A DNA stretch of 64,000 nucleotides, from positions 1 through 64,000 of the IMG/VR virus record IMGVR_UViG_3300025133_000063; one strand, 5' to 3'. This DNA is from a virus. Made by a program: the position numbers and the translations under genes. Shown here piece by piece: positions 7,375 to 64,000 of the stretch. The first letter of the stretch is position 1, and each line of letters starts with the position of its first letter. Below the pieces are notes generated by a model that was not told the origin of the DNA, made no database searches, and was given only the letters and a program-made list of their open reading frames with translations.

Positions 7375-8589
7375 ATGGCTAGAAAGAAGAAAGTAAAAGA
7401 GACTGAAACCAAAGTAGATTTAGACGATTTCGCAAGTGATCTAATTAAATCATTGAATAAAGAGCAAGGCAGTAGAGTAGCTTATAATTTAAGCGCCGAT
7501 GACTCACCTACACATGTAAAACGCTGGATTTCAACAGGATCAAGGCTTCTTGATTACATTTGCTCTAACAGGCGAAACGGCGGTCTCCCAGAGGGAAGAA
7601 TAATAGAGATGTTCGGTCCTCCTTCAATTGGTAAAAGTCATATCGCAACTCAGATTGCAGCATCAACTCAAAGAATGGGTGGAATAGTTGTTTATATCGA
7701 CACAGAGAATGCTACAAGTCCTGAAAACCTTGCCAATCTAGGCGTTGATGTTTCATCAAGATTCGTTTATGTTGACGAACACTGTACAGAAAACGTCTTT
7801 GCAATTGCAGAGTCAACTATTCTTAAAGCAAAGGCCATGAATAAAGATGTTCCAATTACTATTATTTGGGACAGTGTAGCTGCTACATCACCAAAAGCAG
7901 AGCTTGACGGTGATTATGATCAAAACAGTATTGCCCTAAACGCTAGAACTATCTCAAAAGGCATGCGTAAGATCACAGGAATCATAGGTCAGACAAATAC
8001 ATTGATGGTCTGTCTAAATCAGATCAGGGTAAACGTAGGCGTTATGTACGGAGACAATACAACTACGCCAGGGGGAAAAGCTATACCTTTCCACGCATCA
8101 ACACGCATTAAGCTCGGAGCCGGACAACAGATAAAGAATGGAGAAGATGTAATTGGTATCAACGTTTCGGCAAAAACAATAAAAAACAAGGTAGCAGCAC
8201 CTTTCAGAACAGTAAAATTCCAGATTCATTTCGGCAAAGGAATAGTTGAACACGAAGAAATGTTTGACATTCTCAGAAAGCATGGTGAAGAAGTAATAAA
8301 CGGAAATGTAATCTCACTATCAGGTACTGGAGCTTGGAAAGTATTAAATGTTACAAACGAAAAAACGGGCGAAGTAGTAATTGAAAAGAAATTCTATAAA
8401 GCAGATTTTGATAAAATTATAGCAGATCCACAGTATACTGAGTATATTGATGACTTACTAGAAAAGACAATGGTAAAAGTAATGGGAAACTCAGACAATA
8501 TGGATATAGATGCTGAGTCATACGAGGAGATGAAAGCTGTCGCACTAGAAATAGAAGATACATCTGACGGATATGATGAACTTATATGA
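7375..8589 (+). CDS. recA: RecA/UvsX recombinase
   Basis: 'ISTGS..LD', 'GGLPEGRIIEMFGPPSIGKS', 'YIDTE', 'WDSVAA', 'NQIR', 'TTPGGKA'. Confidence 0.95.
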   Translation: MARKKKVKETETKVDLDDFASDLIKSLNKEQGSRVAYNLSADDSPTHVKRWISTGSRLLDYICSNRRNGGLPEGRIIEMFGPPSIGKSHIATQIAASTQRMGGIVVYIDTENATSPENLANLGVDVSSRFVYVDEHCTENVFAIAESTILKAKAMNKDVPITIIWDSVAATSPKAELDGDYDQNSIALNARTISKGMRKITGIIGQTNTLMVCLNQIRVNVGVMYGDNTTTPGGKAIPFHASTRIKLGAGQQIKNGEDVIGINVSAKTIKNKVAAPFRTVKFQIHFGKGIVEHEEMFDILRKHGEEVINGNVISLSGTGAWKVLNVTNEKTGEVVIEKKFYKADFDKIIADPQYTEYIDDLLEKTMVKVMGNSDNMDIDAESYEEMKAVALEIEDTSDGYDELI

Positions 8590-51541: not shown

Positions 51542-51910
51542 GTGTTAGAATATTCTATGCCATTTTTTTATGAAGACAGTAATGTTCCAGCCGTGCTGTC
51601 AAAAATCTCCCCAATTGAAATCGGCGCCATTACATTGGGGCCATTTGTTTTTTCTAGAGGGAAAATAAGTGAATCAACACGTATACACGAAACAATACAC
51701 TGGCAACAATATATTGAGACAGGGATAATTGGTTTTCTTGTCTTATATTTATTGTTTTGGATAATAGGTTTATTCAAATATCGGAGTGGTGTATTGGCTT
51801 ATCGTAATATGCCATTTGAGCATGAAGCATATAAACACCAAGATGATGTATCATATTTGTTTAACAGATCACGTTATGAGTGGTGTCGATTAGGATATTA
51901 CAATGAATGA
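51542..51910 (+). CDS. Small HExxH membrane-associated peptidase-like protein
   Basis: 'AITLGPFVF', 'IHETIHWQQ', a TM segment, 'PFEHEAY'. Confidence 0.65.
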   Translation: MLEYSMPFFYEDSNVPAVLSKISPIEIGAITLGPFVFSRGKISESTRIHETIHWQQYIETGIIGFLVLYLLFWIIGLFKYRSGVLAYRNMPFEHEAYKHQDDVSYLFNRSRYEWCRLGYYNE

Positions 51911-53354
51911 ATTAACGTTAAGACACTATATTAGAGAAGCTCTTGTATTAGATGCCGGTGCCGCTGGAACAGCCAGCTTAGACATACCAGATGGTATTAA
52001 AAATATAGATATAATGGATATAGTCACCGCAGAAATAGCCAAAGGTGATCCTACCGGTAAGAGAATGCAGCAAATTTTAGCATTTAATGAAATGGTTTAC
52101 AATATTGCTATGGAAGGTGGAAATAAAAATGCATGGCAAGCAATTGCCGAAAAAATGTTGGCTTATTGGGGTTATAATGTTGAAGACCAAACAGGCGCCG
52201 ATGCAACAGGAATAACTGTTTTTTACGATGTTGAGAAAGACAATATATACTATTCAGTAAAATCATCGTTTAAATCAGGTGCTAACAGCTATAGGGCTGC
52301 TACATCAAGCTCCAATGTTAAAATTCAGTCTATTTGTGCACTTATTATTAAGGAGCCTGAAAAGAACGTATTGGGTAATATTGGGTGTTTTTGTAACAAG
52401 AAGAACCCTATCATAGGGTGGGGACAAGTTACTGCTCCAATATCAAGAGAAGCAGTGATAAAGAATATTTTGTCTATTGTTTCTAGTGATAATGATTTAG
52501 CAAAAAGATTTATCGATGCAACAGAAAACAAACCATCTTCTTCCATTGCTGATAAAATTATTAGTGATATTAAAAATTATTTTGCCTCGGCCGGCTTAAC
52601 ACCAGCAGATGGTCGTATGGGCTTAAGCCCTATGGCTGCAGTTCTTGGTGATATAAATGAAAAAGAAATAGGATCTCTTACCCTTGTAGATCCAGTTGAG
52701 CTTTTTGAAAAAACATTGGGTTCAGGTATAAAAGATGGTGTTCGTTCAGATGGCACTAAGGTTGCTCCTGAAGAGGATAGATCTGACTTTTTAAGAAGAA
52801 TGAGATCTGTCGCTAGAACGTTAAGTAGCGTTGAGATGGAAGATGTTATAGCGGCGGCTATAGGAATGTTGACATCTGCTAAGCCTGATGCACCATTGGA
52901 GGAAACCTTAAGACAATTTACTCCTTCTACACAAGCTTATCTTAGAGAGCATTTTAAAATAAATGAATCAAGATTATTAAAAAAATATATCCGAAGTTTA
53001 CTTGAATGTGGTGAAGAACCAGGGCAAACTTTACAACCTCTTATGGATCCCTTATTTAATCTTCGCGAAATAGTAAAAGAGCTAACTCTTCTAGAAGATC
53101 ATATGAATAATCCGTCAAAACAATGTCCGGATTGTATTAACAAACATTTAATGAAGTGTGAGGCCTTGTCTGAAGAGGCTATTTCTTTAGATGGTGATAA
53201 CCAGTACCCATTTATTTCCAGTGTACCACAGGTTATTAGAGGGTGGCATAAGGCCGTATTAGATAACGATGTTATACCTCCAGCTGTTCCAGCTGAGATG
53301 AGAAGATTTAGAAAAATGATTATGCCACATGTGGCCAATAAATTTGAGGTTTAG
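51903..53354 (+). CDS. Leader-tagged multidomain protein (possible nuclease domain plus C-terminal Cys/His domain)
   Basis: N-terminal 'LRHYIREAL', 'YDV.....YSVKS', internal tag 'ESRLLKKYIRSLLE', then 'LLEDH.....CPDC..KH'. Confidence 0.65.
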   Translation: MNELTLRHYIREALVLDAGAAGTASLDIPDGIKNIDIMDIVTAEIAKGDPTGKRMQQILAFNEMVYNIAMEGGNKNAWQAIAEKMLAYWGYNVEDQTGADATGITVFYDVEKDNIYYSVKSSFKSGANSYRAATSSSNVKIQSICALIIKEPEKNVLGNIGCFCNKKNPIIGWGQVTAPISREAVIKNILSIVSSDNDLAKRFIDATENKPSSSIADKIISDIKNYFASAGLTPADGRMGLSPMAAVLGDINEKEIGSLTLVDPVELFEKTLGSGIKDGVRSDGTKVAPEEDRSDFLRRMRSVARTLSSVEMEDVIAAAIGMLTSAKPDAPLEETLRQFTPSTQAYLREHFKINESRLLKKYIRSLLECGEEPGQTLQPLMDPLFNLREIVKELTLLEDHMNNPSKQCPDCINKHLMKCEALSEEAISLDGDNQYPFISSVPQVIRGWHKAVLDNDVIPPAVPAEMRRFRKMIMPHVANKFEV

Positions 53355-53396: not shown

Positions 53397-53789
53397 ATGA
53401 AAATCACAAAGAGACAGCTACGAAGAATTATTAGAGAAGCTTTTACAACGGTGTCTGATGAAGAATTTGACAGGGACACCTTTGCAGACTATAGGGGTGG
53501 ACTACGAGATTTAGTTCCATCAGATCCAAAGCGCCCATGGGGATCATATGCTGGTGTTGGTGATGAGACATATTCTGATACTATTGTGATGAGTCCAAAT
53601 GGAGACTCAGTCTTGGTTGATGGTCTAGAAACTTATATACAAGATGTACCCTCACAATTACACCATACTTCAGGTTTTGAAATGAGTAAGACCGATGCAG
53701 ATAATTTAATATTCGCCCTTGAAACTCAGGAACAAGATGGTTATATAGAGCTTGGTGTCGAATACAAAAATGGAAAATGGAGTTGGTAA
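53397..53789 (+). CDS. MKITK-leader protein
   Basis: Begins MKITKRQLRRIIRE. Confidence 0.75.
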   Translation: MKITKRQLRRIIREAFTTVSDEEFDRDTFADYRGGLRDLVPSDPKRPWGSYAGVGDETYSDTIVMSPNGDSVLVDGLETYIQDVPSQLHHTSGFEMSKTDADNLIFALETQEQDGYIELGVEYKNGKWSW

Positions 53790-54166
53790 TGAGAATTACA
53801 AAGAGACAACTACGAAAAATTATTAGAGAAGTTAGCGACTGGTATGATGACGAAAACGAGACGCTTGCCGACAAAAAATTTCGTGACTCCTATGAGAGTG
53901 AAAAACGGCCCCGCGATGATTTACGAAATCGAGTACATCAATACTTGATTGATAAAAAGTTTTTCAAAGGACGTAATCTCAATGGCCGGCCACAGATCGA
54001 GATATTCTGGGGACCACCTGAAGGACCAGATGTCCCAAAAGGTGCAGGATATACAAATCCCGCCCATGATTTTCTAAAATCAGCAGTTGAATCCGGTGAC
54101 ATTGACTGGGCCACATGGGAAGAAATTGAGCCTATCTGGCGAGAAATTGACAGATCAATTAACTGA
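53789..54166 (+). CDS. MKITK-leader protein
   Basis: Start re-assigned to ATG 53789 (TAATG overlap); begins MRITKRQLRKIIRE. Confidence 0.75.
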   Translation: MRITKRQLRKIIREVSDWYDDENETLADKKFRDSYESEKRPRDDLRNRVHQYLIDKKFFKGRNLNGRPQIEIFWGPPEGPDVPKGAGYTNPAHDFLKSAVESGDIDWATWEEIEPIWREIDRSIN

Positions 54167-54186
54167 CATTTAAAAAGGAGATAACA

Positions 54187-55143
54187 ATGAAAATTACAAA
54201 AAGACAACTTAGAAGAATCATTAGAGAAACTGGCCGGCCCGAACACGATGCCGAAGCCCGCGGCATGGTGGCTTCATACCGTCAAGGTTACAATGATGCC
54301 TATCGCGGACCAGGATATAAAAAACGTGGCAATCGCGAATATCTTCGAGGGTACCAACAGGGTGTTGCTGACGTCGAACAAGGTAAGCCCCCACCGGACG
54401 GCTTCCGGCCAGCCCGGCGCATTAGGGAAGCCGAAGGCTCTACCAAGAAATACGATGATGACTCTGCGCTTAAGGGCGGGCAAAGCAAACTTCCTGATGC
54501 CCTTCAAAAAGGGATCATTGATAAGACAGTTGATGACCGTGAAGAGCGTGAAGAAGAAGAGAGAGAAGAGAAGAATGAATCCGTACAAATTATAAAGCGA
54601 CAGCTTAGAAGAACTATTCGCGAAATGATGAGGGGTCCAGCTGCTGAGATGGCTGCAGCCGCTGCAGAGACCGGTGCAGCCGGTATGGCACATCGCCGTG
54701 ATGGCCTCGGTAAAAATATCACCGACGTTGACTTTCCAATTATCGTAGGTTACGAAGGTAAGTCGGAGATTGCATATAATCAGGATGAGCTGGACGACAT
54801 ATTGGATTATGTTGCTCCTACCCATGGCAGTTCTGGAATTCCATACAGCTTAGATTCTATTTCTGATTTAGAACCACACTCTGTTCCTGTAGGTGTTGGA
54901 ATAGAGCAATTGTCTGCTGGAAAGAAAATAAAGATTACAAAAAGTCATTTAAAAAGAATTATTCAAGAAACAGTATTACGTGAAAATTTAAACAGTGCTA
55001 TTGAAAAAGCACTAACAATGTCAGACACTAAATCTATTAATGTTGTAATAGAAAAAGTAAAAGAGATTGTTGGTGATCAATATAATGATGAACAAATTGC
55101 AATTGCTGTTGAAGATAGCTTTGATAACGCCATGGGAATATAA
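54187..55143 (+). CDS. MKITK-leader modular protein with two internal tag copies
   Basis: MKITKRQLRRIIRE, internal 'VQIIKRQLRRTIRE' and 'IKITKSHLKRIIQE'. Confidence 0.75.
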   Translation: MKITKRQLRRIIRETGRPEHDAEARGMVASYRQGYNDAYRGPGYKKRGNREYLRGYQQGVADVEQGKPPPDGFRPARRIREAEGSTKKYDDDSALKGGQSKLPDALQKGIIDKTVDDREEREEEEREEKNESVQIIKRQLRRTIREMMRGPAAEMAAAAAETGAAGMAHRRDGLGKNITDVDFPIIVGYEGKSEIAYNQDELDDILDYVAPTHGSSGIPYSLDSISDLEPHSVPVGVGIEQLSAGKKIKITKSHLKRIIQETVLRENLNSAIEKALTMSDTKSINVVIEKVKEIVGDQYNDEQIAIAVEDSFDNAMGI

Positions 55144-55179: not shown

Positions 55180-55743
55180 GTGAACATTATTCGTGAATAT
55201 ATAAGAGAGCTTCTTGTTGAAGATTTAGCTAAGCGTCAAACTATGGTTATAGAACTGATAACTGAAGAAGACAATTCAGCAGGTCCAGGGTTTAAATACA
55301 TTCACCGTGGAATGAAGATTGATATAGGTAGTGCACCTCTCGCCTCACAGATAAGAAAAGTAGCACAAAAGAAATCAGCCGGTATAAGTGAGCGCGAAGC
55401 TGGTGCTTTTATTATGGCCAAGTTGAAAAACGAAGAAATCGGTGAATCTTGGACAACAAATAGAGATGTAGCTTCAAACTTTGCAGATGTTTGGGAGGCA
55501 ACCAATCGAGGCAGCACTCTTCACGTGATGTTTACTGGCAAGATTCCAAATAATTTTGGTTATGATCCAACAATAACTGGTGAAGAGCCTGCGATGTTTG
55601 ACGATGAAAGTGAGGTTCGAATTCCAAAAGGCGAAGAAATAGAAATCTCTTCTGTTTCTGTTTTTATTGCTAGTAAGGCCAGCGGCAAAAATTGGATGAA
55701 ATTTCGCCCAGTCGCATTTAGCTTAGGCAAGGTAAGAGCATGA
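55180..55743 (+). CDS. Leader-tagged R-S-E type ADP-ribosyltransferase-like protein
   Basis: GTG 55180 gives MNIIREYIRELLVE; 'YIHRG', 'GESWTT', 'DESEV'. Confidence 0.7.
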   Translation: MNIIREYIRELLVEDLAKRQTMVIELITEEDNSAGPGFKYIHRGMKIDIGSAPLASQIRKVAQKKSAGISEREAGAFIMAKLKNEEIGESWTTNRDVASNFADVWEATNRGSTLHVMFTGKIPNNFGYDPTITGEEPAMFDDESEVRIPKGEEIEISSVSVFIASKASGKNWMKFRPVAFSLGKVRA

Positions 55744-56531
55744 ACCTACTCCGCGAATACATAAGAGAGCTGCTAGCAGAAGACGCCATGGGCTTTGTCC
55801 ACGATCTTGCAGCTACATCAGAAGAGTTTGGTGAAGAAGGCGAAATGTTCTTTGGTGGTAATCCCGGAAAAGGCGGAGGCAAGGCAATTAAGCGCGCATT
55901 CAATGCAAATGCTGATCACCAATGGTTGGCAACACTAGACACTGTCCATTGGACCGGTGAGATTTACAATATGGAAGGGCTTGTTGGAAAAGGAAAGGAC
56001 GAACTTTCTGCAACAATGACGCTTCCAGGCGAAGATTTTGATTGGCAGCTTTATTATGGATTATGGATAAAGGGCCGCATAACCTTAGCAGCAAATGATC
56101 AAGACGCGTTATATACAGGTCACTATTCGACAGGTACTCCAGACGAGAAACAAGCACATATAGATAAATCTTCTGGAAGAAACAAGCTGCCATCCGTCTC
56201 AAAAGATTATAGTCGTTACGGACAACTTAAACGTGGGAACGAATATGCCGAAAGGACGGCGAAGAAAATTCCATATCTTTTAGACCAGTCTATGTGGAAT
56301 CCTTCTGGGAATAATAACGAAGCACTGGTCGACAATTGGAAACCTGTTGGAATAATCCTAACGAAATTCGACGAGATAGATATCGTTTCAGGATTGGGGT
56401 ATGTTGAGGGCACCAAAGAAGATATTGAAGAATTTACGCTTGGTGTGACGAAACAAATTCTATTAACGGCCCTTGCGTTTGGTGTACCAGTTTATGATAC
56501 AGAGCGAGAGTTATTATGGAGCCCGGAATGA
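55740..56531 (+). CDS. Leader-tagged protein, possibly ART-fold
   Basis: MNLLREYIRELLAE; 'TVHW', 'ELSAT', 'G..IKG.I..A..D', 'NNEALV'. Confidence 0.55.
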   Translation: MNLLREYIRELLAEDAMGFVHDLAATSEEFGEEGEMFFGGNPGKGGGKAIKRAFNANADHQWLATLDTVHWTGEIYNMEGLVGKGKDELSATMTLPGEDFDWQLYYGLWIKGRITLAANDQDALYTGHYSTGTPDEKQAHIDKSSGRNKLPSVSKDYSRYGQLKRGNEYAERTAKKIPYLLDQSMWNPSGNNNEALVDNWKPVGIILTKFDEIDIVSGLGYVEGTKEDIEEFTLGVTKQILLTALAFGVPVYDTERELLWSPE

Positions 56532-57037
56532 AATTCATGTCATTTCAGAGCTGGCTGGCACAAACAATAGCAGATGATGGTTGTTGTCAATCTGAAAACA
56601 TATCATATCTTTGGGCTGATCCGAATCAGGAAGATGTGCTGGATTATTTCGCCACTCAATATGATTTAAACACTATACGGATGGAAGACATTCAAGCTGC
56701 TGCCGATGAAATGTATCAGAAAACTCAGTCTGCCATAGCCTCTGATTTTCCAGATGAGATTCAAGTTTGGCGGTGTGGTGGATTAGCCGGTGATGTAACA
56801 TCGGTGACGACTAACAAGAGAGTTGCTGATGGTGGGTGTAGCGGTGGTTATTATGGTGGCAAGGATGCCACCGTCACATCATATATGGTAAATCGTTCTG
56901 ATGTTCTAGCTTCGGTTGAGCATCTCTGGCCCGCGGGCGATTTTGTGGAGGACGAACTCTTGGTCCGCCCCGGAGCACTCCGGCCAATGAAAGAATCTTT
57001 ACTCCGTGAATACATAAGAGGGCTCCTAGAGGTTTAG
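56528..57037 (+). CDS. R-S-E type ADP-ribosyltransferase-like protein with C-terminal tag
   Basis: Start 56528 (ATGA overlap); 'VWRCG', 'TSVTT', 'VEDELLV'; ends 'ESLLREYIRGLLEV'. Confidence 0.62.
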   Translation: MKFMSFQSWLAQTIADDGCCQSENISYLWADPNQEDVLDYFATQYDLNTIRMEDIQAAADEMYQKTQSAIASDFPDEIQVWRCGGLAGDVTSVTTNKRVADGGCSGGYYGGKDATVTSYMVNRSDVLASVEHLWPAGDFVEDELLVRPGALRPMKESLLREYIRGLLEV

Positions 57038-57038
57038 A

Positions 57039-57656
57039 ATGAAATTACTTAGAAAATATATAAAGCAACTTTTAAAAGAAGAATATAACATTGAAAAAAA
57101 CAAGTGGACACTTTTAGGACCTGACGATTTAAGACGTGATGACGTAATGCAACAATTATATGATATGACGTGTGAAACTTATGGTCCAATTGGTGGTCAC
57201 CCAAAAATATCATGTCCTTTAGCATTAAATAAATACATGTATTGGATTGTCGCAGATATCGATGATGATCCAGAAATTGATGTTGGAATGTATGGAAAGC
57301 CAACTGCTGCCGGCCATAAAATGGGTGGTGCAGCAAATGATGGTACTCCTCAAGCCGCACAGGCATATAAAGAAAAGTCCGCAGAATTACGTTCTGGTGG
57401 ATCAATAGATGGTGTTGGTAATTGGTATGGTGAAGTTTCCGGAAAGCCAGCGTACGCAATGTTATCAAGAGGGGCTCCGGCTATAGTAAATGAACAACAG
57501 GTCAAGGCACTATTAAAAGGCAAAGGTGTAATTTGGCATGGAATGCATCCTGATCCAGCTGCACCAGCTGTTTTTAAAAATAGCCCTGGATGGTATTCTA
57601 GAAACTTAGGTGGTGTTCTTCATACAAAAATAATTGTTGGCTCACCAAAGGTTTAA
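57039..57656 (+). CDS. Leader-tagged hypothetical protein
   Basis: MKLLRKYIKQLLKE. The fold is uncertain, possibly a divergent GNAT. Confidence 0.6.
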   Translation: MKLLRKYIKQLLKEEYNIEKNKWTLLGPDDLRRDDVMQQLYDMTCETYGPIGGHPKISCPLALNKYMYWIVADIDDDPEIDVGMYGKPTAAGHKMGGAANDGTPQAAQAYKEKSAELRSGGSIDGVGNWYGEVSGKPAYAMLSRGAPAIVNEQQVKALLKGKGVIWHGMHPDPAAPAVFKNSPGWYSRNLGGVLHTKIIVGSPKV

Positions 57657-57658
57657 CA

Positions 57659-58660
57659 GTGCACTCCATTCTTTTAAAAAGTTATATTAATGAAGTAGCA
57701 CTCATAGATTATAACCATAAACAGATCAATGAAGCTCTTGAAATTAAAGAGCTCTTGCGTGATGTGGTTCGTACCGCTCTTGACGCTGGTGCTATAACAT
57801 TGTCTGGAGGAATGGGTGGTGACACAGTTGTAGATATAATATTTGCCGTGGAGTCATCTAAAGAAATACTAAAGGCTGTTAATGATGCTATTAATTCGGC
57901 TAATGAAATTGCCCAAGCACTGAAAGCGGCCATGGCGGCAAATATAAGCTCTGGCCCCGATTCGATTTATGCAGCAGTGGAGAACGTTATAGAAACAATT
58001 GTTGAAAATTCTGATTCTGCTACTGATACCATAGAAAATATGTCTTCTAAGGTTGAAGATCTTTTAAGCCGTTTGGCTGCATCTGTTGGCGATTGGGTCG
58101 CGACTGTGTTACCTGATGATGCTGGACTTGGTGGTATATTAGTTCGCGAGACGCTTCAAGAAATTATAACAAAACTTGGTCAAAATGTTTTTGATTTTGC
58201 CAAAGGTGCATTTTCAAAATTACCTACACAAGCACAAAATTTTATAGCAAGTCCAGAAGCCATGGCTAATTTTCTTAATGAAATAGCAAATAAGATCGTT
58301 GTACATTTAAGTCCTGATGGTGAAAATAACGAGGCCAATGGTGGTTTTTTAGGAATGGCGTCAACAGCAACAAATATAGTTCAGGGTGATTATAGTAAGC
58401 TTGCAAAAGATAAAGCTGTATCATTTTTAAATGGTGATTTTAGAAAAATGATTCCTGTTGCAACACAAATTTTAAATAAACTTATTACGGCATTTTTTGG
58501 TGGTGTTGCCGTAGCACAAATATTGGCAAACTGGAATGAACGGGATGAAGATGAAGAGCAAAATGAAGAGCAAGAGAGCCAAGAAGAATCGCTAGTTCGT
58601 GACTGTATTAAACATATGCTTTATGAAAATGCAACATTAATAAATGGACATGTAAAGTGA
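57659..58660 (+). CDS. Helical, Ala/Gly-rich tagged protein
   Basis: N-terminal 'LLKSYINE', C-terminal 'ESLVRDCIKHMLYE', and amphipathic or hydrophobic helices. Confidence 0.6.
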   Translation: MHSILLKSYINEVALIDYNHKQINEALEIKELLRDVVRTALDAGAITLSGGMGGDTVVDIIFAVESSKEILKAVNDAINSANEIAQALKAAMAANISSGPDSIYAAVENVIETIVENSDSATDTIENMSSKVEDLLSRLAASVGDWVATVLPDDAGLGGILVRETLQEIITKLGQNVFDFAKGAFSKLPTQAQNFIASPEAMANFLNEIANKIVVHLSPDGENNEANGGFLGMASTATNIVQGDYSKLAKDKAVSFLNGDFRKMIPVATQILNKLITAFFGGVAVAQILANWNERDEDEEQNEEQESQEESLVRDCIKHMLYENATLINGHVK

Positions 58661-59520
58661 AGATATTATTTTTACATGGTTTAGAATCTCAGCCTGGAGG
58701 TTCAAAAGTTAAATATCTTCAAGGCTTAGGGCATACTGTTTTAAATCCTCTTTTACCAAAACATGATTTCGATGAGTCAGTTAAAATTGCACAAGCGCTT
58801 ATAGATAGCGAACATCCTGAAATTGTTGTTGGTTCTAGTCGAGGCGGCGCTGTAGCCATGAACATCAATGCTCAAGGTGCTAGACTAATCTTAATAGCTC
58901 CTGCATGGAAGCGTTTTGGAAATTCTTCATCTATTCCGGTAAATACAACAATATTACATTGTAGAGACGATAAAATTGTACCATATAAAGATAGCGCTGA
59001 ATTAGGTGTTAATTTAATGAGTTGTGGTGATGATCATAGAATGTCTGACAAATTGGCTTTGACGGCTCTTGGACAAGCAGTTGGCTTACAAAAAGATAAA
59101 AATATGAAAACAGAAAATTTTCTTCGTAAATATATAAGAGAAACGTTGTGTGAATTTATAAATCAGCCGATTGGAACAGTGGATGGCGACGACCCTCGTC
59201 CCACACCATCAGAAGAAGAATTTGTTACTGGGCAGGATATTTTGGCTGGTTATATTGTTGTAAGTGATTCTCACGATAATATCATAGTAGGATACGCTCC
59301 AATAACCCGTACTGATGGTCCTGATAGACCCTTCCTTGTAAGGACGACTGACACCAAATGGCTTATTCCCTTTGGTATGGTGAGGGCCTTATATCCTCAA
59401 GTGGAGGACACATTTAACTGGGTCGATTCAAAGGAAGACTGGCGAGATCTCGGTGTTGGATCTCGTGGAACGGTTGGAAATTTTTCATGGGAGTGGTTAG
59501 AAAATGAACCTACTCCATGA
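58657..59520 (+). CDS. Alpha/beta hydrolase (YqiA-like) fused to a tagged C-terminal module
   Basis: 'FLHGLES', 'GSSRGG', 'D..V', 'DDH'; internal 'MKTENFLRKYIRETLCE' at 59104. Confidence 0.75.
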   Translation: MKILFLHGLESQPGGSKVKYLQGLGHTVLNPLLPKHDFDESVKIAQALIDSEHPEIVVGSSRGGAVAMNINAQGARLILIAPAWKRFGNSSSIPVNTTILHCRDDKIVPYKDSAELGVNLMSCGDDHRMSDKLALTALGQAVGLQKDKNMKTENFLRKYIRETLCEFINQPIGTVDGDDPRPTPSEEEFVTGQDILAGYIVVSDSHDNIIVGYAPITRTDGPDRPFLVRTTDTKWLIPFGMVRALYPQVEDTFNWVDSKEDWRDLGVGSRGTVGNFSWEWLENEPTP

Positions 59521-60643
59521 ATACATAAGAGTTTTACTCGAGCAAGAGCAAGGATCGAAAGGCAGTCTTATTGTTGTCGACATTCAACCAGAGTACGAGA
59601 GCGGCACACTGTTCGATGTCGGTGATATGTTAAGAGCTGCAGCAGAAGATTATTCCAGAGTGTTATTCTTATTCAACGGTGAAGACACTCTTGGTATGGT
59701 TTCAGAATCTGCACTAAAGAACTTCTATTTTGAAAAGCTTGACTACGATGAAGAAGTGTTTGATGAATTACTATCTAAGTCAGAGTTTTTTGACAAAGGC
59801 TACGGCTTCTTTAGGGACGTCATGGATTCCGATGCTTGCTTTGACCGCAACCAGGTTGTGAAAATCGTCAAATATATGATCGATAAAGACATTCAAGATA
59901 TTCGTGATCTTGAAGAAGAAGACATTGAAGTTATTGGGGTTAGTGAGCTGTTATTTGATGATCTTGAAGACTACGGATTCTGGGTTCCTGAACTATCTGA
60001 TGAGTTGCCTAATTGGAACGGATCAGATCTTGTAGGTGGCGCCAGAAACGAATGTATGGCTGAAGTTGAGATACTCGGCGTAGCACAAGGGTTAAGCTTT
60101 AATCACGTTGACAAGTTCATATATGAGGGCGACAATAGATATATAGAAACCTTGACAGAGGCTGCTACGTTTAAGCATAAGGGATCTACGGTTTATGGAC
60201 ACAAGATAGAAGACTTGCTCCGTAATCTTAAGAGGGGCGAAGGCATATATGAAGACGAAGGACTTGAAATGATAGAATTCCAGAAAGATTATCTGGAAGG
60301 CATGTCGAAGAAGCCGTCAGTCGAACTATACAGAGTAGTGTTTGCAAAGTCGATTGATGATGTCGATAGAAGTAATCTCGGGCATCACTATACAGACGAC
60401 TATGATTCGTTCACTTTGCAGATGATGGAATCTTTGTTATCTCAGGCGAGGCAGGAAAACCCTTCGCTTGAGCTGGAGGACGCTCGGATAGTAAAAGTAA
60501 GCGCCCCGGCAAATGCGATAGATTACGAAGAAGTTATGAGGACATGGTCATTATTCCCATATGAATATGAGATCACTCTAGGCGACACTAGCGGCGTAGA
60601 GATACTTGACATAGACGATGCTTACGAAAGTAGCGAGAGATAA
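59504..60643 (+). CDS. Leader-tagged fusion: isochorismatase/nicotinamidase-like domain plus ART-like domain
   Basis: MNLLHEYIRVLLE; 'LIVVDIQ', 'DKGYG', 'GGARNEC'; C-terminal 'LYRV', 'LGHHYT', 'YEYEI'. Confidence 0.6.
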   Translation: MNLLHEYIRVLLEQEQGSKGSLIVVDIQPEYESGTLFDVGDMLRAAAEDYSRVLFLFNGEDTLGMVSESALKNFYFEKLDYDEEVFDELLSKSEFFDKGYGFFRDVMDSDACFDRNQVVKIVKYMIDKDIQDIRDLEEEDIEVIGVSELLFDDLEDYGFWVPELSDELPNWNGSDLVGGARNECMAEVEILGVAQGLSFNHVDKFIYEGDNRYIETLTEAATFKHKGSTVYGHKIEDLLRNLKRGEGIYEDEGLEMIEFQKDYLEGMSKKPSVELYRVVFAKSIDDVDRSNLGHHYTDDYDSFTLQMMESLLSQARQENPSLELEDARIVKVSAPANAIDYEEVMRTWSLFPYEYEITLGDTSGVEILDIDDAYESSER

Positions 60644-60645
60644 AT

Positions 60646-61224
60646 ATGAACCTACTCCGTGAATACATAAGAGAACTCCTCACTGAATCTGTCGATCCCA
60701 AAATCATGTCAATGATTGATAAACTCGAGGAACTAGAAGGTTTTGTTGAGATCATGCCAGACAGAGCAGTGATTATGATTAACAAAGTTGTTGGGGAAGA
60801 TCGCTATCCGGTTCCACTCGGCCATGTGGCGTGGGGAGAAGGAAGGCTCGATGGTCCATGCCTTGGAGCAAAAATAGTATCTTCATCCACTATGAAAATG
60901 GGTTTTGGTCCGCTTGCTTACGATGTTGCGATTGAGGTAACCGGCGGACTAACATCAGATCGAGATTCAGTTACGAAATATGCAAATGCTGTCTGGGATC
61001 GATATATGAATGGTCGTCCTGATGTCCAAGTGCTACAAATGGATAATGATCGAAATCACCTAACTCCTGAAGACGAAGATAATTGTGAACAACGTTCCGC
61101 CAGAGTCGATTCAGGAGGATGGTCACCACCAGGCAGCTTTTGGGATTCTTCTTTGAGTAAGGTTTACAAAAAATCAGGCACTCCAGTCATGGATGAGTTG
61201 CGCCGAAGAGGGATGTTAGACTAA
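60646..61224 (+). CDS. Leader-tagged GNAT-like acetyltransferase
   Basis: MNLLREYIRELLTE; 'GFGPLAYD', 'LTSDRDSV...ANAVW'. Confidence 0.6.
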   Translation: MNLLREYIRELLTESVDPKIMSMIDKLEELEGFVEIMPDRAVIMINKVVGEDRYPVPLGHVAWGEGRLDGPCLGAKIVSSSTMKMGFGPLAYDVAIEVTGGLTSDRDSVTKYANAVWDRYMNGRPDVQVLQMDNDRNHLTPEDEDNCEQRSARVDSGGWSPPGSFWDSSLSKVYKKSGTPVMDELRRRGMLD

Positions 61225-61583
61225 TGGAACTCATCCGCGAATACATAAGAGATTTGATAAAAGAATCGATAGCTATCGGCCAATGTTATCCTCACGCTGT
61301 TAATATGGCAAAAGATTCAAAAGTGTCAGATAGAAATGATCTGTCGAAATTCAAGGTAGTGCACGGTCGAGTTACAAACAAATGGAATGATAAGTCATTT
61401 GAACATGCATGGGTTGAAAAGGGTGATATGATATTTGATTGGCAAACCCATTCAACAAAACCAGACGGTGTTCCTCATGATGTATACTACGATATGTATC
61501 AGCCTGAGATCTACAAAGAATACACCGGTGCAGAAACAATAATGAACTGTGTCAATTCAGGACATGCAGGACCTTGGCGATGA
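61224..61583 (+). CDS. Leader-tagged transglutaminase/papain-like Cys-His-Asp protein
   Basis: MELIREYIRDLIKE; 'GQCY', 'VVHG', 'HAWVE', 'IFD'. Confidence 0.65.
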   Translation: MELIREYIRDLIKESIAIGQCYPHAVNMAKDSKVSDRNDLSKFKVVHGRVTNKWNDKSFEHAWVEKGDMIFDWQTHSTKPDGVPHDVYYDMYQPEIYKEYTGAETIMNCVNSGHAGPWR

Positions 61584-61894
61584 AACTGTTACGTGAATAC
61601 ATAAGAGAGATGCTTAATGAACAAATAGACCTGCAGGCTGTTATAAATGATTTGGATAATCTTACTGCAGATGAGATCATGAAGCTGTGGCGTGCTGTCG
61701 CTACTGCCAGTAGGAAGAAAGAAAAGGAGATAAAAGCCGACTTTAACAAAGGCGACAAAGTCGAATTCGACCACGATGGCGAGACAATCACTGGCACTGT
61801 CGCCCGGCGAGGTGGAAAGTTTGTGAGTGTTAATGTTCACGGGTACGGCTCGCCGTGGAAAAGAAATCCATCTAGCCTGAGAAAAATATCATGA
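61580..61894 (+). CDS. Leader-tagged small protein with SH3/KOW-like C-terminus
   Basis: Start 61580 (ATGA overlap), MKLLREYIREMLNE; 'FNKGDKVEF...G.V......V.V....W'. Confidence 0.65.
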   Translation: MKLLREYIREMLNEQIDLQAVINDLDNLTADEIMKLWRAVATASRKKEKEIKADFNKGDKVEFDHDGETITGTVARRGGKFVSVNVHGYGSPWKRNPSSLRKIS

Positions 61895-62397
61895 ACATTC
61901 TCCGCGAGTACATAAGAGAGCTATTGAGAGAAAAACGAAATACCGCCGGCACCTTTTATCACTTTAGTAATGAAAAGTTTGATGAATTTAGTCTCTCCAA
62001 CGCGTCGGATAGCGCAATATGGGGGAAGGGAATTTATCTTTCTGACGACCCTGACGATTTGAGCGGCTGGGGGAAAGAAGACAGAAACCGAGGCTTCTTG
62101 TACACAGTGGAGATAAAATCCGATCAGAAAAATATTATAGATATGACACAACCGATCCCTCCAGAAATATATGAAAGGATTGAGGCGCATCTTGAAAGAC
62201 CTCTGTCAGACATAACCAAAGAGGATGGGATATTCCCTTTTAATACTTTAGATCGAAAATCTGGATCTGTGGCAAACGCAATGCGAGAAATGGGCTTTGA
62301 AGTTTTAAAGCACCCACCACCGGGTAGCCATAAGGGAAGCCATTATTTAGTCACCGAACCATCAGTTATAGGCGTTTTAGAGGTTCAACAACAATGA
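61891..62397 (+). CDS. Leader-tagged H-Y type ADP-ribosyltransferase-like protein
   Basis: MNILREYIRELLRE; 'FYHFS...FDEF', 'WGKGIYLS', 'G.LY.V', 'GF', 'YLV..P..I'. Confidence 0.62.
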   Translation: MNILREYIRELLREKRNTAGTFYHFSNEKFDEFSLSNASDSAIWGKGIYLSDDPDDLSGWGKEDRNRGFLYTVEIKSDQKNIIDMTQPIPPEIYERIEAHLERPLSDITKEDGIFPFNTLDRKSGSVANAMREMGFEVLKHPPPGSHKGSHYLVTEPSVIGVLEVQQQ

Positions 62398-62933
62398 ACC
62401 TCCTACGCGAATACATAAGAGAGCTGCTAGCTGAGGCTCCCACCCTTAACCACAAGGGGGATGAGAATTATTTCCGAGTTGAACTGGGAAGAATTGGATA
62501 TGCCCAAGGTGCCCGACATCTTAGGTTCCAAGACTGTCAAGCTGACGTCGATAAAATCATGCAAACACCTGAGTACCTGGTTGCTAAAGAAAAATACGAA
62601 ACCACCAACACGACGAAGGACATGGTTGAAGATCCGGATTCTCCGAATGGGTTCAGGATGCAGAAAAAACCAGCAACATTCCGGCCACCGTTCTACGATG
62701 TAGCAAATGCATGGATCCACGATGAAGATAATCGTGGCAAAGGTCATGGTAAAGAAATCTATAAAGCATTCATAGACAAAGCCAGTGAGTATGCAAAAAG
62801 AAGCGGTGGTGTCTTTATCGGAGCACATCACTGCACAATAGGTTCAGGCACATCAGAAGCGGCAAAGCGGGTTTGGAAATCTATAACTAAAAACTACACA
62901 TCATCTGGTGATGTTATCTTTATAGGATTATGA
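62394..62933 (+). CDS. Leader-tagged GNAT acetyltransferase
   Basis: MNLLREYIRELLAE; acetyl-CoA loop 'NRGKGHGK.IY' and 'TSEAAKRVW'. Confidence 0.7.
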   Translation: MNLLREYIRELLAEAPTLNHKGDENYFRVELGRIGYAQGARHLRFQDCQADVDKIMQTPEYLVAKEKYETTNTTKDMVEDPDSPNGFRMQKKPATFRPPFYDVANAWIHDEDNRGKGHGKEIYKAFIDKASEYAKRSGGVFIGAHHCTIGSGTSEAAKRVWKSITKNYTSSGDVIFIGL

Positions 62934-62934
62934 A

Positions 62935-64000
62935 ATGAGCTTACTTCGTGAATACATAAGGTTGTTAAGTGAAAAACAAGTTCGTGATCAAAAAAAGAAA
63001 CGTGTTCTTTATCACATTGGTCCACGCCCTGCAAAGCCTATGCCAATGTCTCGCCCTTATGCACAGTCCTGGCGCCGGTACTGGCTCGATCAAGGTGTGG
63101 AATCTGGAGTATTTTTCTCACCCAACCCAATTGACATAGCCCAGTATCATGGAATTAGTGGTGATGTTTATGCCTACAAAATTCCAGAGTGGGTAATTGC
63201 AAAAGCAGGCGGAGTCCACAGATATGATCATGGCTCTGAAGTGTTGATTTCTGCCGATGTATGGCAAGAAGCTGGAGATGAAATAGAGTTTCTTGGAAAG
63301 AGCATGCCGGAAAAAGAGCTTTGGGAGAAGATTGAATCTCTTGGAGCTGAACCATTAAGAAGATCTGCCGGAAGCCGACCAGGCTGGATGAGTGATGACG
63401 AATGGGAAAAAGCAAGTATGAACAAAACCACACAGAGTCATATATCTGGACTAAGATCTACTAAGCATCTAAAAAACGCCATCCGCATGATGAAGCCCAA
63501 TGAGCGTGACGAAGCTCTTACCGCGTTTGAGACTATTGATGTCCTTAGAAAAAAAGATTATGAGATAATAGATATGATCAAGAGCTATATGAATGAGTCA
63601 TCTCTTCGGGGTTACATAAAAGAGGTGTTGGAAAGTCAACCTGAAGAGCCAGATATGACTCAATACGTTGACGATCTAGAAAATGAGATTTTTACGATGC
63701 TTTTTCAAAAGAGCACATATGACTATCTTCAGTCTCAGGATGAAGGTATAGAATCGACGATGATCATGAATACATCTCTGTTTGATGAATATAATAATAT
63801 AAACGAAGTACATTTAGGTATCCTGGTGAACGATTCAGAGTCCGCGGACGTCGAAGCTGCATATGTTTGTGCCCCAGAGGAGAGGAATAAGTCGAACCTT
63901 GTGTTGAGTATCAATATTCCTAGAAACTATCCCCAGGTTGAGGGTTTCCAAGATTGGCTCAGTGCGGAGCTAGCCGATAGTTTATCTCACGAAATCCAGC
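62935..64000 (+). CDS. Leader-tagged modular protein (ART-like plus probable HExxH domain), 3'-truncated and absent from the ORF track
   Basis: Translated by hand and open to the window end. MSLLREYIRLLSE; 'LYHIG', 'GVFFS', 'VYAY', 'SEVLI'; internal tag 'MNESSLRGYIKEVLE' at 63589; ends '...SLSHEIQ'. Confidence 0.7.
   Translation, partial: MSLLREYIRLLSEKQVRDQKKKRVLYHIGPRPAKPMPMSRPYAQSWRRYWLDQGVESGVFFSPNPIDIAQYHGISGDVYAYKIPEWVIAKAGGVHRYDHGSEVLISADVWQEAGDEIEFLGKSMPEKELWEKIESLGAEPLRRSAGSRPGWMSDDEWEKASMNKTTQSHISGLRSTKHLKNAIRMMKPNERDEALTAFETIDVLRKKDYEIIDMIKSYMNESSLRGYIKEVLESQPEEPDMTQYVDDLENEIFTMLFQKSTYDYLQSQDEGIESTMIMNTSLFDEYNNINEVHLGILVNDSESADVEAAYVCAPEERNKSNLVLSINIPRNYPQVEGFQDWLSAELADSLSHEIQ

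What the first reader, a model, noticed from the sequence alone, without database searches (positions are those of the whole stretch)
55740..62973. Leader is conserved at DNA level: possible recombination handle for cassette shuffling
The core GAATACATAAGAG recurs almost unchanged in about nine copies, for example atgaacctactccgcgaatacataagagagctgcta (55740), atgaacctactccgtgaatacataagagaactcctc (60646) and atgaacctcctacgcgaatacataagagagctgcta (62394). The synonymous codons TAC-ATA-AGA are kept, although the central part of the window appears to favour TAT/ATT. These cassettes also look more GC-rich than core genes. Inference: the repeats are homogenised and act as crossover points for gain, loss and reordering of whole genes. 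That would be an integron-like array with no integrase in the window, perhaps driven by the phage RecA.
Basis: partly seen in the sequence, partly recalled or inferred. Interest (0 to 1): 0.8.

Follow-up and report, generated by a model that had tools for sequence, protein, structure and literature searches.

The report
Shared leader on shuffled phage cargo genes
About twenty neighbouring genes of an uncultured marine giant phage begin with the same short leader, probably a tag that loads proteins into the phage head; these genes are reshuffled freely between related phages, mostly at the leader, but the leader copies are not kept alike by copying one another.

Summary
GAATACATAAGAG occurs 7 times exactly and twice with one mismatch, always at codons 6-10 of consecutive + strand genes. 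Cassettes with this core are GC-richer than the rest of the contig.

It encodes part of an N-terminal peptide, MNLLREYIRELLxE. A second class, MKITKRQLRRIIKE, also occurs. Together they tag about 21 genes at 51.9-68 kb of an 80 kb contig, and more than 200 distinct genes in related marine jumbo phages of about 290 kb.

I read the peptide as a T4-type capsid-targeting leader. It matches T4's MKTYQEFIAE in length and register. Complete relatives carry gp21-type protease and gp23-type capsid genes. Small head-module proteins beside that protease carry the second leader.

Shuffling is real: no two related loci share cassette order. Most junctions lie at the leader or at leader-like linkers; at least one lies outside.

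Homogenisation is not supported. Among 28 orthologs, synonymous identity is 0.44 in the leader and 0.47 in the body. Leaders within the contig are no more alike than leaders between genomes.

Four codons (TAC, ATA, AGR, and CGN at the first Arg) are fixed across the clade, which is unexplained. No integrase or attC-like sites exist.

Other first-stage notes in this scan described the same array. Verdict: a new variant of T-even internal-protein locus shuffling.

The parts
55740..55781 (+). Canonical YIR-class leader (MNLLREYIRELLAE) of cassette 55740-56531
   Evidence: It shares 38 of 42 nt, including a 26-nt exact run, with the leader at 62394.
60646..60687 (+). Canonical leader (MNLLREYIRELLTE) of cassette 60646-61224
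   Evidence: In a related contig of run X4 this ATG directly follows the end of cassette 62394.
62394..62435 (+). Canonical leader (MNLLREYIRELLAE) of cassette 62394-62933
59504..59545 (+). Leader (MNLLHEYIRVLLEQ) of the widespread N-module, 59504-60136
61224..61265 (+). Leader (MELIREYIRDLIKE) of cassette 61224-61583
61580..61621 (+). Leader (MKLLREYIREMLNE) of cassette 61580-61894
61891..61932 (+). Leader (MNILREYIRELLRE; GAG-TAC-ATA-AGA) of cassette 61891-62397. The cargo gives a weak ART-PolyVal match.
62935..62976 (+). Leader (MSLLREYIRLLSEK) of cassette 62935-64296
63589..63633 (+). Internal leader copy (MNESSLRGYIKEVLE) inside ORF 62935-64296
55180..55221 (+). Leader (V/M-NIIREYIRELLVE; TAT-ATA-AGA) of cassette 55159/55180-55743
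56987..57037 (+). Orphan internal leader (MKESLLREYIRGLLEV, then a stop) at the end of ORF 56516-57037. The 91% homology to L022 ends at about 57024, right after the leader core. In L022 the ORF continues into a second domain.
57039..57080 (+). AT-type leader (MKLLRKYIKQLLKE; TAT-ATA-AAG) of the low-GC3 cassette 57039-57656
59104..59154 (+). Internal leader (MKTENFLRKYIRETLCE) inside ORF 58657-59520
60137..60163 (+). Leader-like linker (RYIETLTEAA) after the N-module. It is the junction at which at least 7 different C-modules are attached in relatives.
60182..60651 (+). Captured C-module. In an unrelated, GC-richer and more abundant phage it is a stand-alone gene without a leader. The left junction lies in cargo; the right junction lies at the shared ATGAAC of the next leader.
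51903..51944 (+). AT-type YIR leader (MNELTLRHYIREAL; TAT-ATT-AGA) of the first array gene, 51903-53354
53397..53438 (+). KRQ-class leader (MKITKRQLRRIIRE)
53789..53830 (+). KRQ-class leader (MRITKRQLRKIIRE)
54187..54228 (+). KRQ-class leader (MKITKRQLRRIIRE). Many different contigs of other marine runs match only this 42-nt stretch, at 90% likeness or more.
54583..54624 (+). Internal KRQ-like copy (VQIIKRQLRRTIRE) in ORF 54187-55143
54931..54969 (+). Internal KRQ-like copy (KITKSHLKRIIQE) in ORF 54187-55143
7375..8589 (+). Its presence is shown; any role here is not tested.
   Evidence: PF00154, E 9.5e-63

Best explanation
The repeated DNA encodes an N-terminal leader peptide. It comes in two classes, MNLLREYIRELLxE and MKITKRQLRRIIKE. 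I read it as a T4-type capsid-targeting sequence: it loads otherwise unrelated cargo proteins into the prohead, and a gp21-type protease then removes it after an [L/I]-x-Glu site. The proteins would be injected with the DNA.

The DNA similarity has three sources:
(i) strong constraint on the peptide;
(ii) common descent of leader-plus-cargo units, which move laterally as whole cassettes between related jumbo phages. In this AT-rich contig the canonical-codon copies sit on compositionally foreign, GC-richer cassettes;
(iii) a clade-wide preference for four codons (CGN at Arg1, TAC, ATA, AGR at Arg2) whose cause is unknown.

The copies are not homogenised within the genome.

The array is a hyperplastic region in which cassettes are gained, lost, reordered, fused and split. 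Junctions cluster at the leader and at leader-like linkers. That is the one place where an exchange still gives a packaged, cleavable product, and it also offers 13-26 nt of identity for short-homology recombination.

Shown: the peptide, its spread, the shuffling, the junction positions, and the absence of homogenisation. Inferred: capsid targeting and cleavage, and that crossovers occur inside the leader DNA.
For: Peptide, and register from the Met:
- The leader sits at the N-terminus of about 21 consecutive genes.
- There are 213 distinct YIR-class and 86 KRQ-class leaders in this contig, two complete relatives and 80 metagenome loci. About 80% of the YIR leaders are N-terminal.
- T4's capsid-targeting sequence is MKTYQEFIAE (PMC8442874). 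MNLLREYIRE has the same 10-residue length, with Glu6, an aromatic at 7, Ile8 and Glu10.
- [LIVMA]-x-E follows in 151 of 213 YIR leaders. I-[KR]-E follows in 85 of 86 KRQ leaders.

Head machinery:
- G001, G002 and G003 each have a Peptidase_S77 (gp21) match above the curated cut-off. G001 and G003 have gp23-type capsid genes.
- The replication module of the contig is collinear with G001 at a mean of about 50% amino-acid identity.
- In G001 and G003 a small protein two genes downstream of the protease gene starts M-A-KI[ST]K.MLKGIVKE, which is the KRQ leader.

Cargo: RNase_T exonuclease, Zeta_toxin-like kinase, and a weak ART-PolyVal match.

No homogenisation:
- Among orthologs, codon identity is 0.438 in the leader and 0.469 in the body; 12-codon body windows give 0.471 +/- 0.047.
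- Within this contig leader identity is 0.431; against G001 it is 0.512 and against G003 0.422.

Lateral cassettes:
- The leader's canonical-codon score correlates with cargo GC3 (rho 0.67, p 0.003). Contig median GC3 is 0.253, G001 0.297, G003 0.346.
- Some cassettes are 85-95% identical to relatives whose core genes are 38-70% identical.

Shuffling and junctions.

Codon fixation in 168 leaders sampled without regard to leader DNA: TAC 80% (background 38.5%), ATA 89% (26.6%), Arg1 CGN 91% (56%), Arg2 AGR 93% (44%). Glu and the last two Leu codons are random.
Against: - No virion proteomics and no cleavage data exist for any member of this clade.
- The window's own contig is only 27% complete and holds no head genes, so the protease is inferred from relatives.
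- PHROGs recognise none of the cargo or head-core proteins.
- Neither peptide constraint nor recent descent explains the fixation of TAC, ATA and AGR. Neighbouring wobble sites are randomised, and internal leader copies keep the bias. A nucleotide-level function is therefore not excluded.
- At 70-90% identity I cannot tell a crossover inside the leader from one at the start codon.
- One junction (60182-60185) is clearly outside a leader.
Confidence: 0.6

Rival explanations
1. The leader DNA is itself the recombination substrate. Copies are kept alike by gene conversion, and RecA-type crossovers between them excise, insert and reorder whole cassettes, like an integron without an integrase.
For: - Cassette order differs in every related locus, and in a contig 89-92% alike.
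- Homology to L022 ends right after a leader core.
- At least 7 C-modules are joined at one leader-like linker.
- Fusions with partly deleted leaders exist, for example L072.
- The leaders at 55740 and 62394 share 38 of 42 nt, slightly more than either shares with any orthologous leader, where the best are 36 and 35.
- RecA is present.
- Precedent: short conserved cassettes mediate shuffling and form mini-circles in T4-type phages (PMC2839356).
Against: - There is no excess synonymous identity in leaders.
- There is no within-genome homogenisation in this contig. Pooled over all contigs the excess is small: 0.481 against 0.447.
- Exact shared runs are at most 26 nt, with a median of 7.
- Synonymous conservation differs from site to site, which recent copying would not produce.
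- A junction at 60182-60185 lies outside any leader.
- The orphan leader at 56987-57037 is followed by a second complete leader. A crossover within the leader would instead give one chimeric leader.
- There is no recombinase and no attC-like site.
Confidence: 0.2
2. The fixed codons reflect selection on translation, not on DNA. A-rich or host-rare codons (ATA, AGA; AAA, ACA and AGA in the second leader class) early in the gene would favour initiation or tie expression to phage-encoded tRNAs. Shuffling would then be ordinary illegitimate recombination filtered by selection.
For: - The KRQ leader is also codon-biased towards AGA (85-88% of Arg against 27% background), GAA and AAA.
- G001 encodes tRNA-Arg(TCT), tRNA-Lys(TTT), tRNA-Thr(TGT), tRNA-Asn(GTT) and a tRNA with anticodon CAT.
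- The contig has an ORF that I read as TilS-like from its sequence alone (78649-79269; no family search was run on it). TilS would be needed to read ATA through a CAT-anticodon tRNA-Ile.
- N-terminal codon bias is a known phenomenon in bacteria (my own knowledge).
Against: - Arg1 is CGN and Tyr is TAC, which are not A-rich choices.
- Internal leader copies, far from any start codon, keep TAC 63%, ATA 79% and AGR 79%, not significantly less than N-terminal copies, though n is only 19.
- No tRNA-Tyr was found.
- In low-GC3 cassettes of this contig the codons have drifted to TAT and ATT.
Confidence: 0.15
3. The repeats, or the mosaic arrangement, are an artefact of metagenome assembly, with chimeric joins at repeated leaders.
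For: The contig comes from a metagenome. Leaders are repeated. Region 60185-60651 is far more abundant than its flanks in other samples.
Against: - Exact repeats are at most 26 nt, shorter than the 31-letter words of the read index.
- All fusions are in frame.
- The copy of the abundant segment in this contig differs from the abundant allele at 18 of 467 positions.
- Pieces with no differences recur in four other runs.
- The same architecture is seen in complete relatives of 284-293 kb, one with terminal repeats, and in more than 80 independent contigs.
Confidence: 0.03

Closest known systems
Internal-protein (IP) loci of T-even phages, with the capsid-targeting sequence (Repoila et al. 1994 as cited in PMC3012670, PMC12373910 and PMC2839356; CTS sequence from PMC8442874)
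   Same: - Unrelated small proteins share only a leader of about 10-14 residues at the N-terminus.
- The leader ends in a Glu cleavage site for a gp21-type protease.
- The loci are hypervariable between relatives in number, order and identity of genes.
- The head module is of the T4 type.
   Different: - The scale is about 21 tagged genes in 16 kb here, and dozens per genome in relatives, against 3 in T4.
- There are two leader classes.
- Leader-like linkers join several cargo domains into polyproteins.
- Genes abut, with no intergenic promoter or terminator blocks.
- The phage is otherwise not T4-like: it has a DnaE-type polymerase, bacterial-type RecA and GroEL.
- Packaging and cleavage are untested here.
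PeSL (early-promoter stem-loop) cassettes that mediate modular shuffling in T4-type phages (Arbiol et al. 2010, PMC2839356; PMC4122927)
   Same: Short conserved DNA elements flank non-essential genes in hyperplastic regions. Differences between relatives are insertions, deletions and replacements bounded by those elements.
   Different: - Here the repeated element is coding (the leader), not an intergenic promoter-terminator.
- No excess of promoter-like or terminator-like sites is found.
- Mini-circles have not been looked for.
Propeptide-bearing ejection and inner-body proteins of giant phages phiKZ, 201phi2-1 and SPN3US (PMC5694885)
   Same: These are giant phages with many head-packaged, ejected proteins. 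A gp21-related protease processes them after Glu. Diverged paralogs can share an identical N-terminus (SPN3US gp53 and gp54).
   Different: - Their propeptides are mostly long (over 100 residues) and not one shared short leader.
- Their cleavage motif is A/S/G-x-E rather than L/I-x-E.
- No arrays of leader-tagged single-domain cassettes have been reported for them.
Integrons
   Same: Arrays of co-directional, mostly promoterless cassettes of unrelated function, with variable content.
   Different: - There is no integrase.
- There are no attC-type imperfect inverted repeats.
- The repeat lies at the 5' coding end and is translated.

Membership tests
T4-type CTS-tagged internal (head-packaged, injected) proteins | A short N-terminal leader shared by otherwise unrelated proteins | tested here: met
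   Cargo after the leader is unrelated, for example 55740 against 62394.
T4-type CTS-tagged internal (head-packaged, injected) proteins | The leader ends in the protease motif [L/I]-x-Glu | tested here: met
   151 of 213 YIR leaders and 85 of 86 KRQ leaders. This is the sequence motif only. That T4's protease cleaves after Glu is cited from PMC5694885. The L/I-x-E form of the motif is from my own knowledge.
T4-type CTS-tagged internal (head-packaged, injected) proteins | A gp21-type prohead protease and a gp23-type capsid protein in the same genome | tested here: inconclusive
   Met in the relatives G001, G002 and G003 (protease) and G001 and G003 (capsid protein). The window's own contig is 27% complete and holds neither.
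T4-type CTS-tagged internal (head-packaged, injected) proteins | Sequence relationship of the leader to the T4 CTS MKTYQEFIAE | tested here: inconclusive
   Same length, and identical residues at positions 1, 6, 8 and 10, with an aromatic at 7. The peptide is too short for a statistical test of homology.
T4-type CTS-tagged internal (head-packaged, injected) proteins | Proteins are physically inside the capsid, have the leader removed, and are injected | not testable with these tools
   Needs virion mass spectrometry and N-terminal mapping.
Integron | An IntI-type tyrosine recombinase next to the array | tested here: not met
   PF00589 gives no match in the contig, G001 or G003, while all 14 control genomes match. 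PF00239 also gives no match.
Integron | attC sites: imperfect inverted repeats at the 3' end of each cassette | tested here: not met
   no local inverted repeats at cassette ends. The only repeat families are the two leaders, and they are direct repeats.
Repeat-mediated modular shuffling of T4-type hyperplastic regions (PeSL / IP-locus type) | Differences between relatives are gains, losses and replacements bounded by the repeated element | tested here: met
   One exception lies at 60182-60185.
Repeat-mediated modular shuffling of T4-type hyperplastic regions (PeSL / IP-locus type) | The repeated element is an intergenic promoter plus a stem-loop terminator | tested here: not met
   40 promoter-like sites against 43.3 +/- 6.8 expected, and 13 terminator-like sites against 10.3 +/- 3.0. 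Genes abut or overlap.
Repeat-mediated modular shuffling of T4-type hyperplastic regions (PeSL / IP-locus type) | Circular excision products with a chimeric repeat | not testable with these tools
   Only assembled contigs of public runs were available. The 'goes back' joints lie in diverged contigs and are alternative gene orders, not circles of this phage.

The most novel reading that the evidence does not exclude
The clade-wide fixed core CGY-GAR-TAC-ATA-AGR is a nucleotide-level signal. It could be a preferred strand-exchange or nuclease site, or an RNA element. It would actively target exchange of leader-tagged cargo genes between co-infecting jumbo phages, making an integrase-free 'effector integron' whose attachment site is also the packaging signal of the protein. 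The evidence does not exclude this. The four codons are fixed while neighbouring wobble sites are random. Internal copies keep them. A divergent leader in an unrelated phage (MNLEELSKLIRE) also uses ATA-AGA-GAA.
Probability: 0.12. Interest if true: 0.85.

Novelty: new variant of a known kind. Interest (0 to 1): 0.5.

Why it matters
If the leader is a capsid-targeting tag, this clade of uncultured marine jumbo phages carries the largest known repertoire of head-packaged, injected proteins: dozens per genome and more than 200 distinct ones in the loci sampled here. The repertoire is organised as freely exchangeable modules.

That would turn a mass of unannotated genes into a defined catalogue of candidate first-minute effectors and anti-defence proteins.

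It also gives a natural experiment on how short coding repeats shape modular evolution.

For phage engineering, it would offer a second, portable packaging tag, with natural examples of multi-cargo polyproteins.

The specific claim that the DNA repeat is homogenised as a crossover handle does not survive the synonymous-site tests. The codon-level fixation is a small, real puzzle.

Tried and rejected
- Megablast of the array, and tblastn of cargo 55740, against isolated phage genomes found no match. The DnaE polymerase has only distant relatives, under 31% identity.
- PHROGs found nothing for five array proteins and five head-module proteins.
- Pfam gave nothing above its curated cut-off for 17 of the 20 array proteins scanned. 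The exceptions are RNase_T, Zeta_toxin and a borderline UPF0227 match.
- Repoila et al. 1994 (PMC395341) is not held. It is cited only through later papers.
- A full-text search for the leader strings found no paper.
- The near-identical relatives G002, G004, L006 and L008 are collinear with a constant offset, so they hold no informative rearrangement.
- Read laying gave only assembled contigs. It offers no read-level variants, and parts without cover say nothing. Joints with short sides between KRQ leaders (53397-54228) are leader-only matches of other phages, not rearrangements of this one.
- No tRNA lies in the window.
- I considered and rejected: a promoter within the leader (it would lie downstream of its own start codon), an attC-like structure and an assembly artefact (see rivals).
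- Not run: RNA folding of the leader region (little discriminating power) and a complex prediction of leader with protease (enzyme-substrate pairs rarely pass).

Full report
1. THE OBSERVATION

The 13-mer GAATACATAAGAG occurs 7 times exactly and twice with one mismatch, all on the + strand between 55195 and 62409. With up to 2 mismatches there are 13 matches, against 2.87 +/- 1.52 in shuffles. Each copy lies at codons 6-10 of an ORF. These ORFs follow one another head to tail.

The repeat is therefore first of all a peptide: M-N-L-L-R-E-Y-I-R-E-L-L-x-E. I call it the YIR class. A second leader class, M-K-I-T-K-R-Q-L-R-R-I-I-R/K-E (the KRQ class), heads the genes at 53397, 53789, 54187 and 64964.

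The window is the first 64 kb of a single 80,404-nt virus contig. Tagged genes run without interruption from 51903 to 68066, about 21 genes. There are also internal leader copies at 54583, 54931, 59104, 63589 and 66059, and an orphan leader at 56987-57037.

- The 37 longest ORFs of the window at 1-51.5 kb (150 aa or more) use TAC for 22% of Tyr codons, ATA for 36% of Ile and AGA for 40% of Arg. Eleven leaders keep TAC-ATA-AG[AG].
- The array has GC 0.401 against 0.367, and GC3 0.312 against 0.259.

2. WHAT THE PHAGE IS

The contig encodes a DnaE-type polymerase, bacterial-type RecA, DnaB, ribonucleotide reductase and GroEL. It has no near relative among isolated phages.

A scan of IMG/VR with CTNCGNGAATACATAAGAG hit 22 loci in about 15 large viral contigs of 64-293 kb. 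Nearly all hits lie at true N-terminal leaders.

I fetched two complete relatives: G001 (293,409 nt, terminal repeats) and G003 (284,429 nt). The contig's replication module is collinear with G001 at a mean of about 50% amino-acid identity. CheckV rates the contig as 27% complete. It is thus a fragment of a jumbo phage of roughly 290 kb.

Public marine metagenome runs hold pieces identical to it.

By strict patterns, G001 has 22 leader genes and G003 has 38, in several arrays. Pooling the contig, these two genomes and 80 metagenome loci gives 213 distinct YIR leaders and 86 distinct KRQ leaders.

3. WHAT THE LEADER MOST LIKELY DOES

- T4's capsid-targeting sequence is MKTYQEFIAE. It directs the internal proteins, or any protein fused to it, into the prohead, and it is cut off once (PMC8442874; PMC3012670). 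MNLLREYIRE has the same length from the Met and the same Glu6, aromatic 7, Ile8 and Glu10.
- T4-family and giant-phage prohead proteases cleave after Glu (PMC5694885). [LIVMA]-x-E follows the YIR core in 151 of 213 leaders. I-[KR]-E ends 85 of 86 KRQ leaders.
- G001, G002 and G003 each have a Peptidase_S77 (gp21) match above the curated cut-off. G001 and G003 have gp23-type capsid genes 5-6 kb away.
- In both head modules a small protein two genes downstream of the protease gene begins M-A-K-I-[ST]-K-x-M-L-K-G-I-V-K-E, which is the KRQ leader. The next small protein is leader-like too. This ties the leader to the prohead core by position.
- Recognisable cargo fits injected effectors: an RNase_T exonuclease, a Zeta_toxin-like kinase and a weak ART-PolyVal match. 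Most cargo has no family.

None of this shows packaging or cleavage. That step is inferred.

4. IS THE DNA MORE CONSERVED THAN THE PEPTIDE REQUIRES?

I ran four tests.

(a) Orthologs. The N-terminal module of ORF 59504 has many orthologs in marine metagenomes. In 28 of them, codon identity at identical residues is 0.438 for leader codons 2-13 and 0.469 for the body. Twelve-codon windows of the body give 0.471 +/- 0.047. Overall the leader is not more conserved at synonymous sites.

(b) Homogenisation. Leader pairs within a contig score 0.481 and pairs between contigs 0.447 (permutation p 0.026, on a partly biased sample). For this contig the within-contig value is 0.431, against 0.512 versus G001 and 0.422 versus G003. 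There is no concerted evolution here.

(c) Site by site. I collected 168 leaders without reference to leader DNA (G001, G003 and the metagenome loci).
- Tyr is TAC in 80% (background 38.5%).
- Ile is ATA in 89% (background 26.6%).
- The first Arg is CGN in 91% (background 56%).
- The second Arg is AGR in 93% (background 44%).
- The Glu codons are 55:45, CGT and CGC are equal, and the last two Leu codons look like background.

This unevenness argues against simple recent copying. It points to selection, or to some bias, acting on particular codons. The binomial p-values ignore shared ancestry and should not be taken literally.

The KRQ leader is biased as well: AGA makes up 85-88% of Arg codons and GAA 91% of Glu codons.

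Internal leader copies keep the bias: TAC 63%, ATA 79%, AGR 79% (n = 19). This is not significantly less than N-terminal copies, so translation initiation alone is an unlikely cause.

(d) Composition. Within this contig, the number of canonical codons in a leader correlates with the GC3 of its cargo (rho 0.67, p 0.003). TAC leaders sit on cargo with GC3 0.31-0.48, with one exception. TAT leaders sit on cargo with GC3 0.23-0.33. Median GC3 is 0.253 for the contig, 0.297 for G001 and 0.346 for G003.

Resident cassettes have drifted to TAT, ATT and AGA.

In line with this, some cassettes are 85-95% identical to relatives whose core genes are 38-70% identical.

5. SHUFFLING

- Cargo-only blastp shows that G003, read in its direction of transcription, carries 62935-like, 61224-like, 60646-like and 59504-like cassettes in that order. 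This is the reverse of the order here, yet all genes stay co-directional, so it is not an inversion. G003 also has fused forms, such as 59504-N plus 62394 in one ORF.
- Across 13 related loci no two share cassette order. Copy number varies too: one locus has six 60646-family copies.
- A 3.6-kb contig of run X4 is 89-92% alike. It joins position 62934 directly to 60646: the end of cassette 62394 is followed by the ATG of cassette 60646. The joint is ambiguous by 4 nt and has 203 matching letters on its shorter side.

6. WHERE THE JUNCTIONS LIE

(i) Homology of 91% to L022 runs through ORF 56516 and stops at about 57024, just after the core of an internal leader. Here a stop codon follows and a second, complete, AT-type leader starts at 57039. 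In L022 the ORF goes on into another domain.

(ii) The 59504 N-module always ends in a leader-like linker..EGDNRY[IT]E.LTEAA. Relatives carry at least seven different C-modules after it, in frame. These include the cargo of our cassettes 60646, 61224 and 62394.

(iii) The 62394-type cargo is found behind a full leader, behind an internal leader, behind this linker, and fused to the end of a 61224-type protein with most of the leader deleted.

(iv) The C-module of our ORF 59504 (60182-60651) is a stand-alone gene without a leader in an unrelated, GC-richer phage, at 95% amino-acid identity. In four runs that version is 28-100x deep, with loose ends exactly at 60185 and 60651. Its left junction lies 7 codons past the linker, so outside any leader. 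Its right junction lies at the ATGAAC shared with the next gene's start.

Most junctions therefore sit at the leader or linker, but not all. The orphan-plus-complete leader pair at 56987-57080 is not what a crossover within the leader would leave behind.

Exact identity between leader pairs in the contig is at most 26 nt (55740 against 62394), then 21, 19 and 17 nt, with a median of 7 nt. From my own knowledge, this is at or below the length that RecA-type recombination uses efficiently. Crossovers within short conserved cassettes have, however, been demonstrated in T4-type phages (PMC2839356).

At 70-90% identity I cannot separate 'crossover inside the leader' from 'junction at the start codon, kept by selection'.

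7. WHAT IT IS NOT

- There is no tyrosine or serine recombinase in the contig or in the two complete relatives.
- There are no attC-like inverted repeats. The only repeat families are the two leaders.
- There is no excess of promoter-like or terminator-like sites. Genes abut. The array is neither integron-like nor PeSL-like in its parts.
- An assembly artefact is unlikely. Repeats are shorter than the 31-letter words of the read index, fusions are in frame, and the architecture recurs in complete genomes and in more than 80 independent contigs.

8. COMPARISON AND NOVELTY

The closest known system is the internal-protein loci of T-even phages. There, unrelated injected proteins share only a capsid-targeting leader, and the loci vary between relatives in number, order and identity of genes. 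This is as reported for Repoila et al. 1994 by PMC12373910, PMC3012670 and PMC2839356. I could not read the 1994 paper itself.

Four things are new here:
- the scale of the repertoire;
- the existence of two leader classes;
- the use of leader-like linkers to build polyproteins;
- the absence of intergenic regulatory repeats, so that the coding leader is the only repeated element.

A full-text search for the leader strings found no paper.

Other first-stage notes on this genome describe the same array as capsid-targeted cargo and note the internal copies. I had reached the same reading before seeing them, and I tested it in part.

9. VERDICT

Cassette shuffling with leader-associated junctions is real. 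Homogenisation and the integron analogy are not supported.

The best explanation is a capsid-targeting leader on laterally mobile cargo cassettes. The clade-wide fixation of four codons remains unexplained.

Noticed in passing
window 60182-60651: The C-terminal half of ORF 59504 is 95% identical (amino acids) to a stand-alone gene without a leader in an unrelated, GC-richer phage (43-46% GC). That gene is far more abundant in four marine runs (28-100x). It looks like a fresh capture of a foreign gene into a leader-tagged polyprotein.
   Followed up: yes
L115:1468-2573 and L103:2309-2660: The donor phage of that module carries a tandem series of small genes, each about 60-70 aa, that all start MKVGDLVR. 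This is another repeated N-terminal motif on consecutive genes, in a different phage type.
   Followed up: no
L032:12544-12975 (G001 172544-172975); G003 82035-81574: Small head-module proteins two genes downstream of the gp21-type protease gene start with the KRQ-type leader (MAKI[ST]K.MLKGIVKE). They are candidate prohead-core proteins that may show the leader's original role.
   Followed up: partly
L032:16269-18167 and L032:18261-20000 (G001 176269-178167 and 178261-180150): G001 has two tandem gp23-type capsid genes whose first 70 residues are identical.
   Followed up: no
L001:6252-6959, minus strand (contig 68252-68959): Directly after the array, on the opposite strand, lies an ORF with an N-terminal hydrophobic signal-like segment and a trypsin-like serine protease look (..TAAHV..GDSG-like..). 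I did not run a family search on it.
   Followed up: no
L001:7794-8036 (contig 69794-70036): A small ORF with a GIY-YIG-type N-terminus (YIVEC..YYCGIT..RL.QHN) lies 1.7 kb beyond the array end. A nuclease this close to a shuffled region may be worth a look.
   Followed up: no
L001:16649-17269 (contig 78649-79269); L037:14609-14686 and L037:19487-19563 (G001): The contig has an ORF that looks like a TilS-type PP-loop enzyme (SGGLDS motif); no family search was run on it. The relative G001 encodes a tRNA with anticodon CAT and a tRNA-Arg(TCT). Together these could serve the ATA and AGA codons that are fixed in the leader.
   Followed up: partly
L027:12354-12761 (G001): ARAGORN calls a tmRNA gene (tag ANNNYHFEADRLAA) in the complete relative G001.
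   Followed up: no
window 54187-55143: One ORF holds three KRQ-type leader copies, at 54187, 54583 and 54931, about 350-400 nt apart. It looks like three fused cassettes, that is, a polyprotein.
   Followed up: partly
window 52959-53000: The first array gene, 51903-53354, has an internal leader copy (NESRLLKKYIRSLLECGEE). Internal copies are typically preceded by x-E-S or N-E-S.
   Followed up: partly
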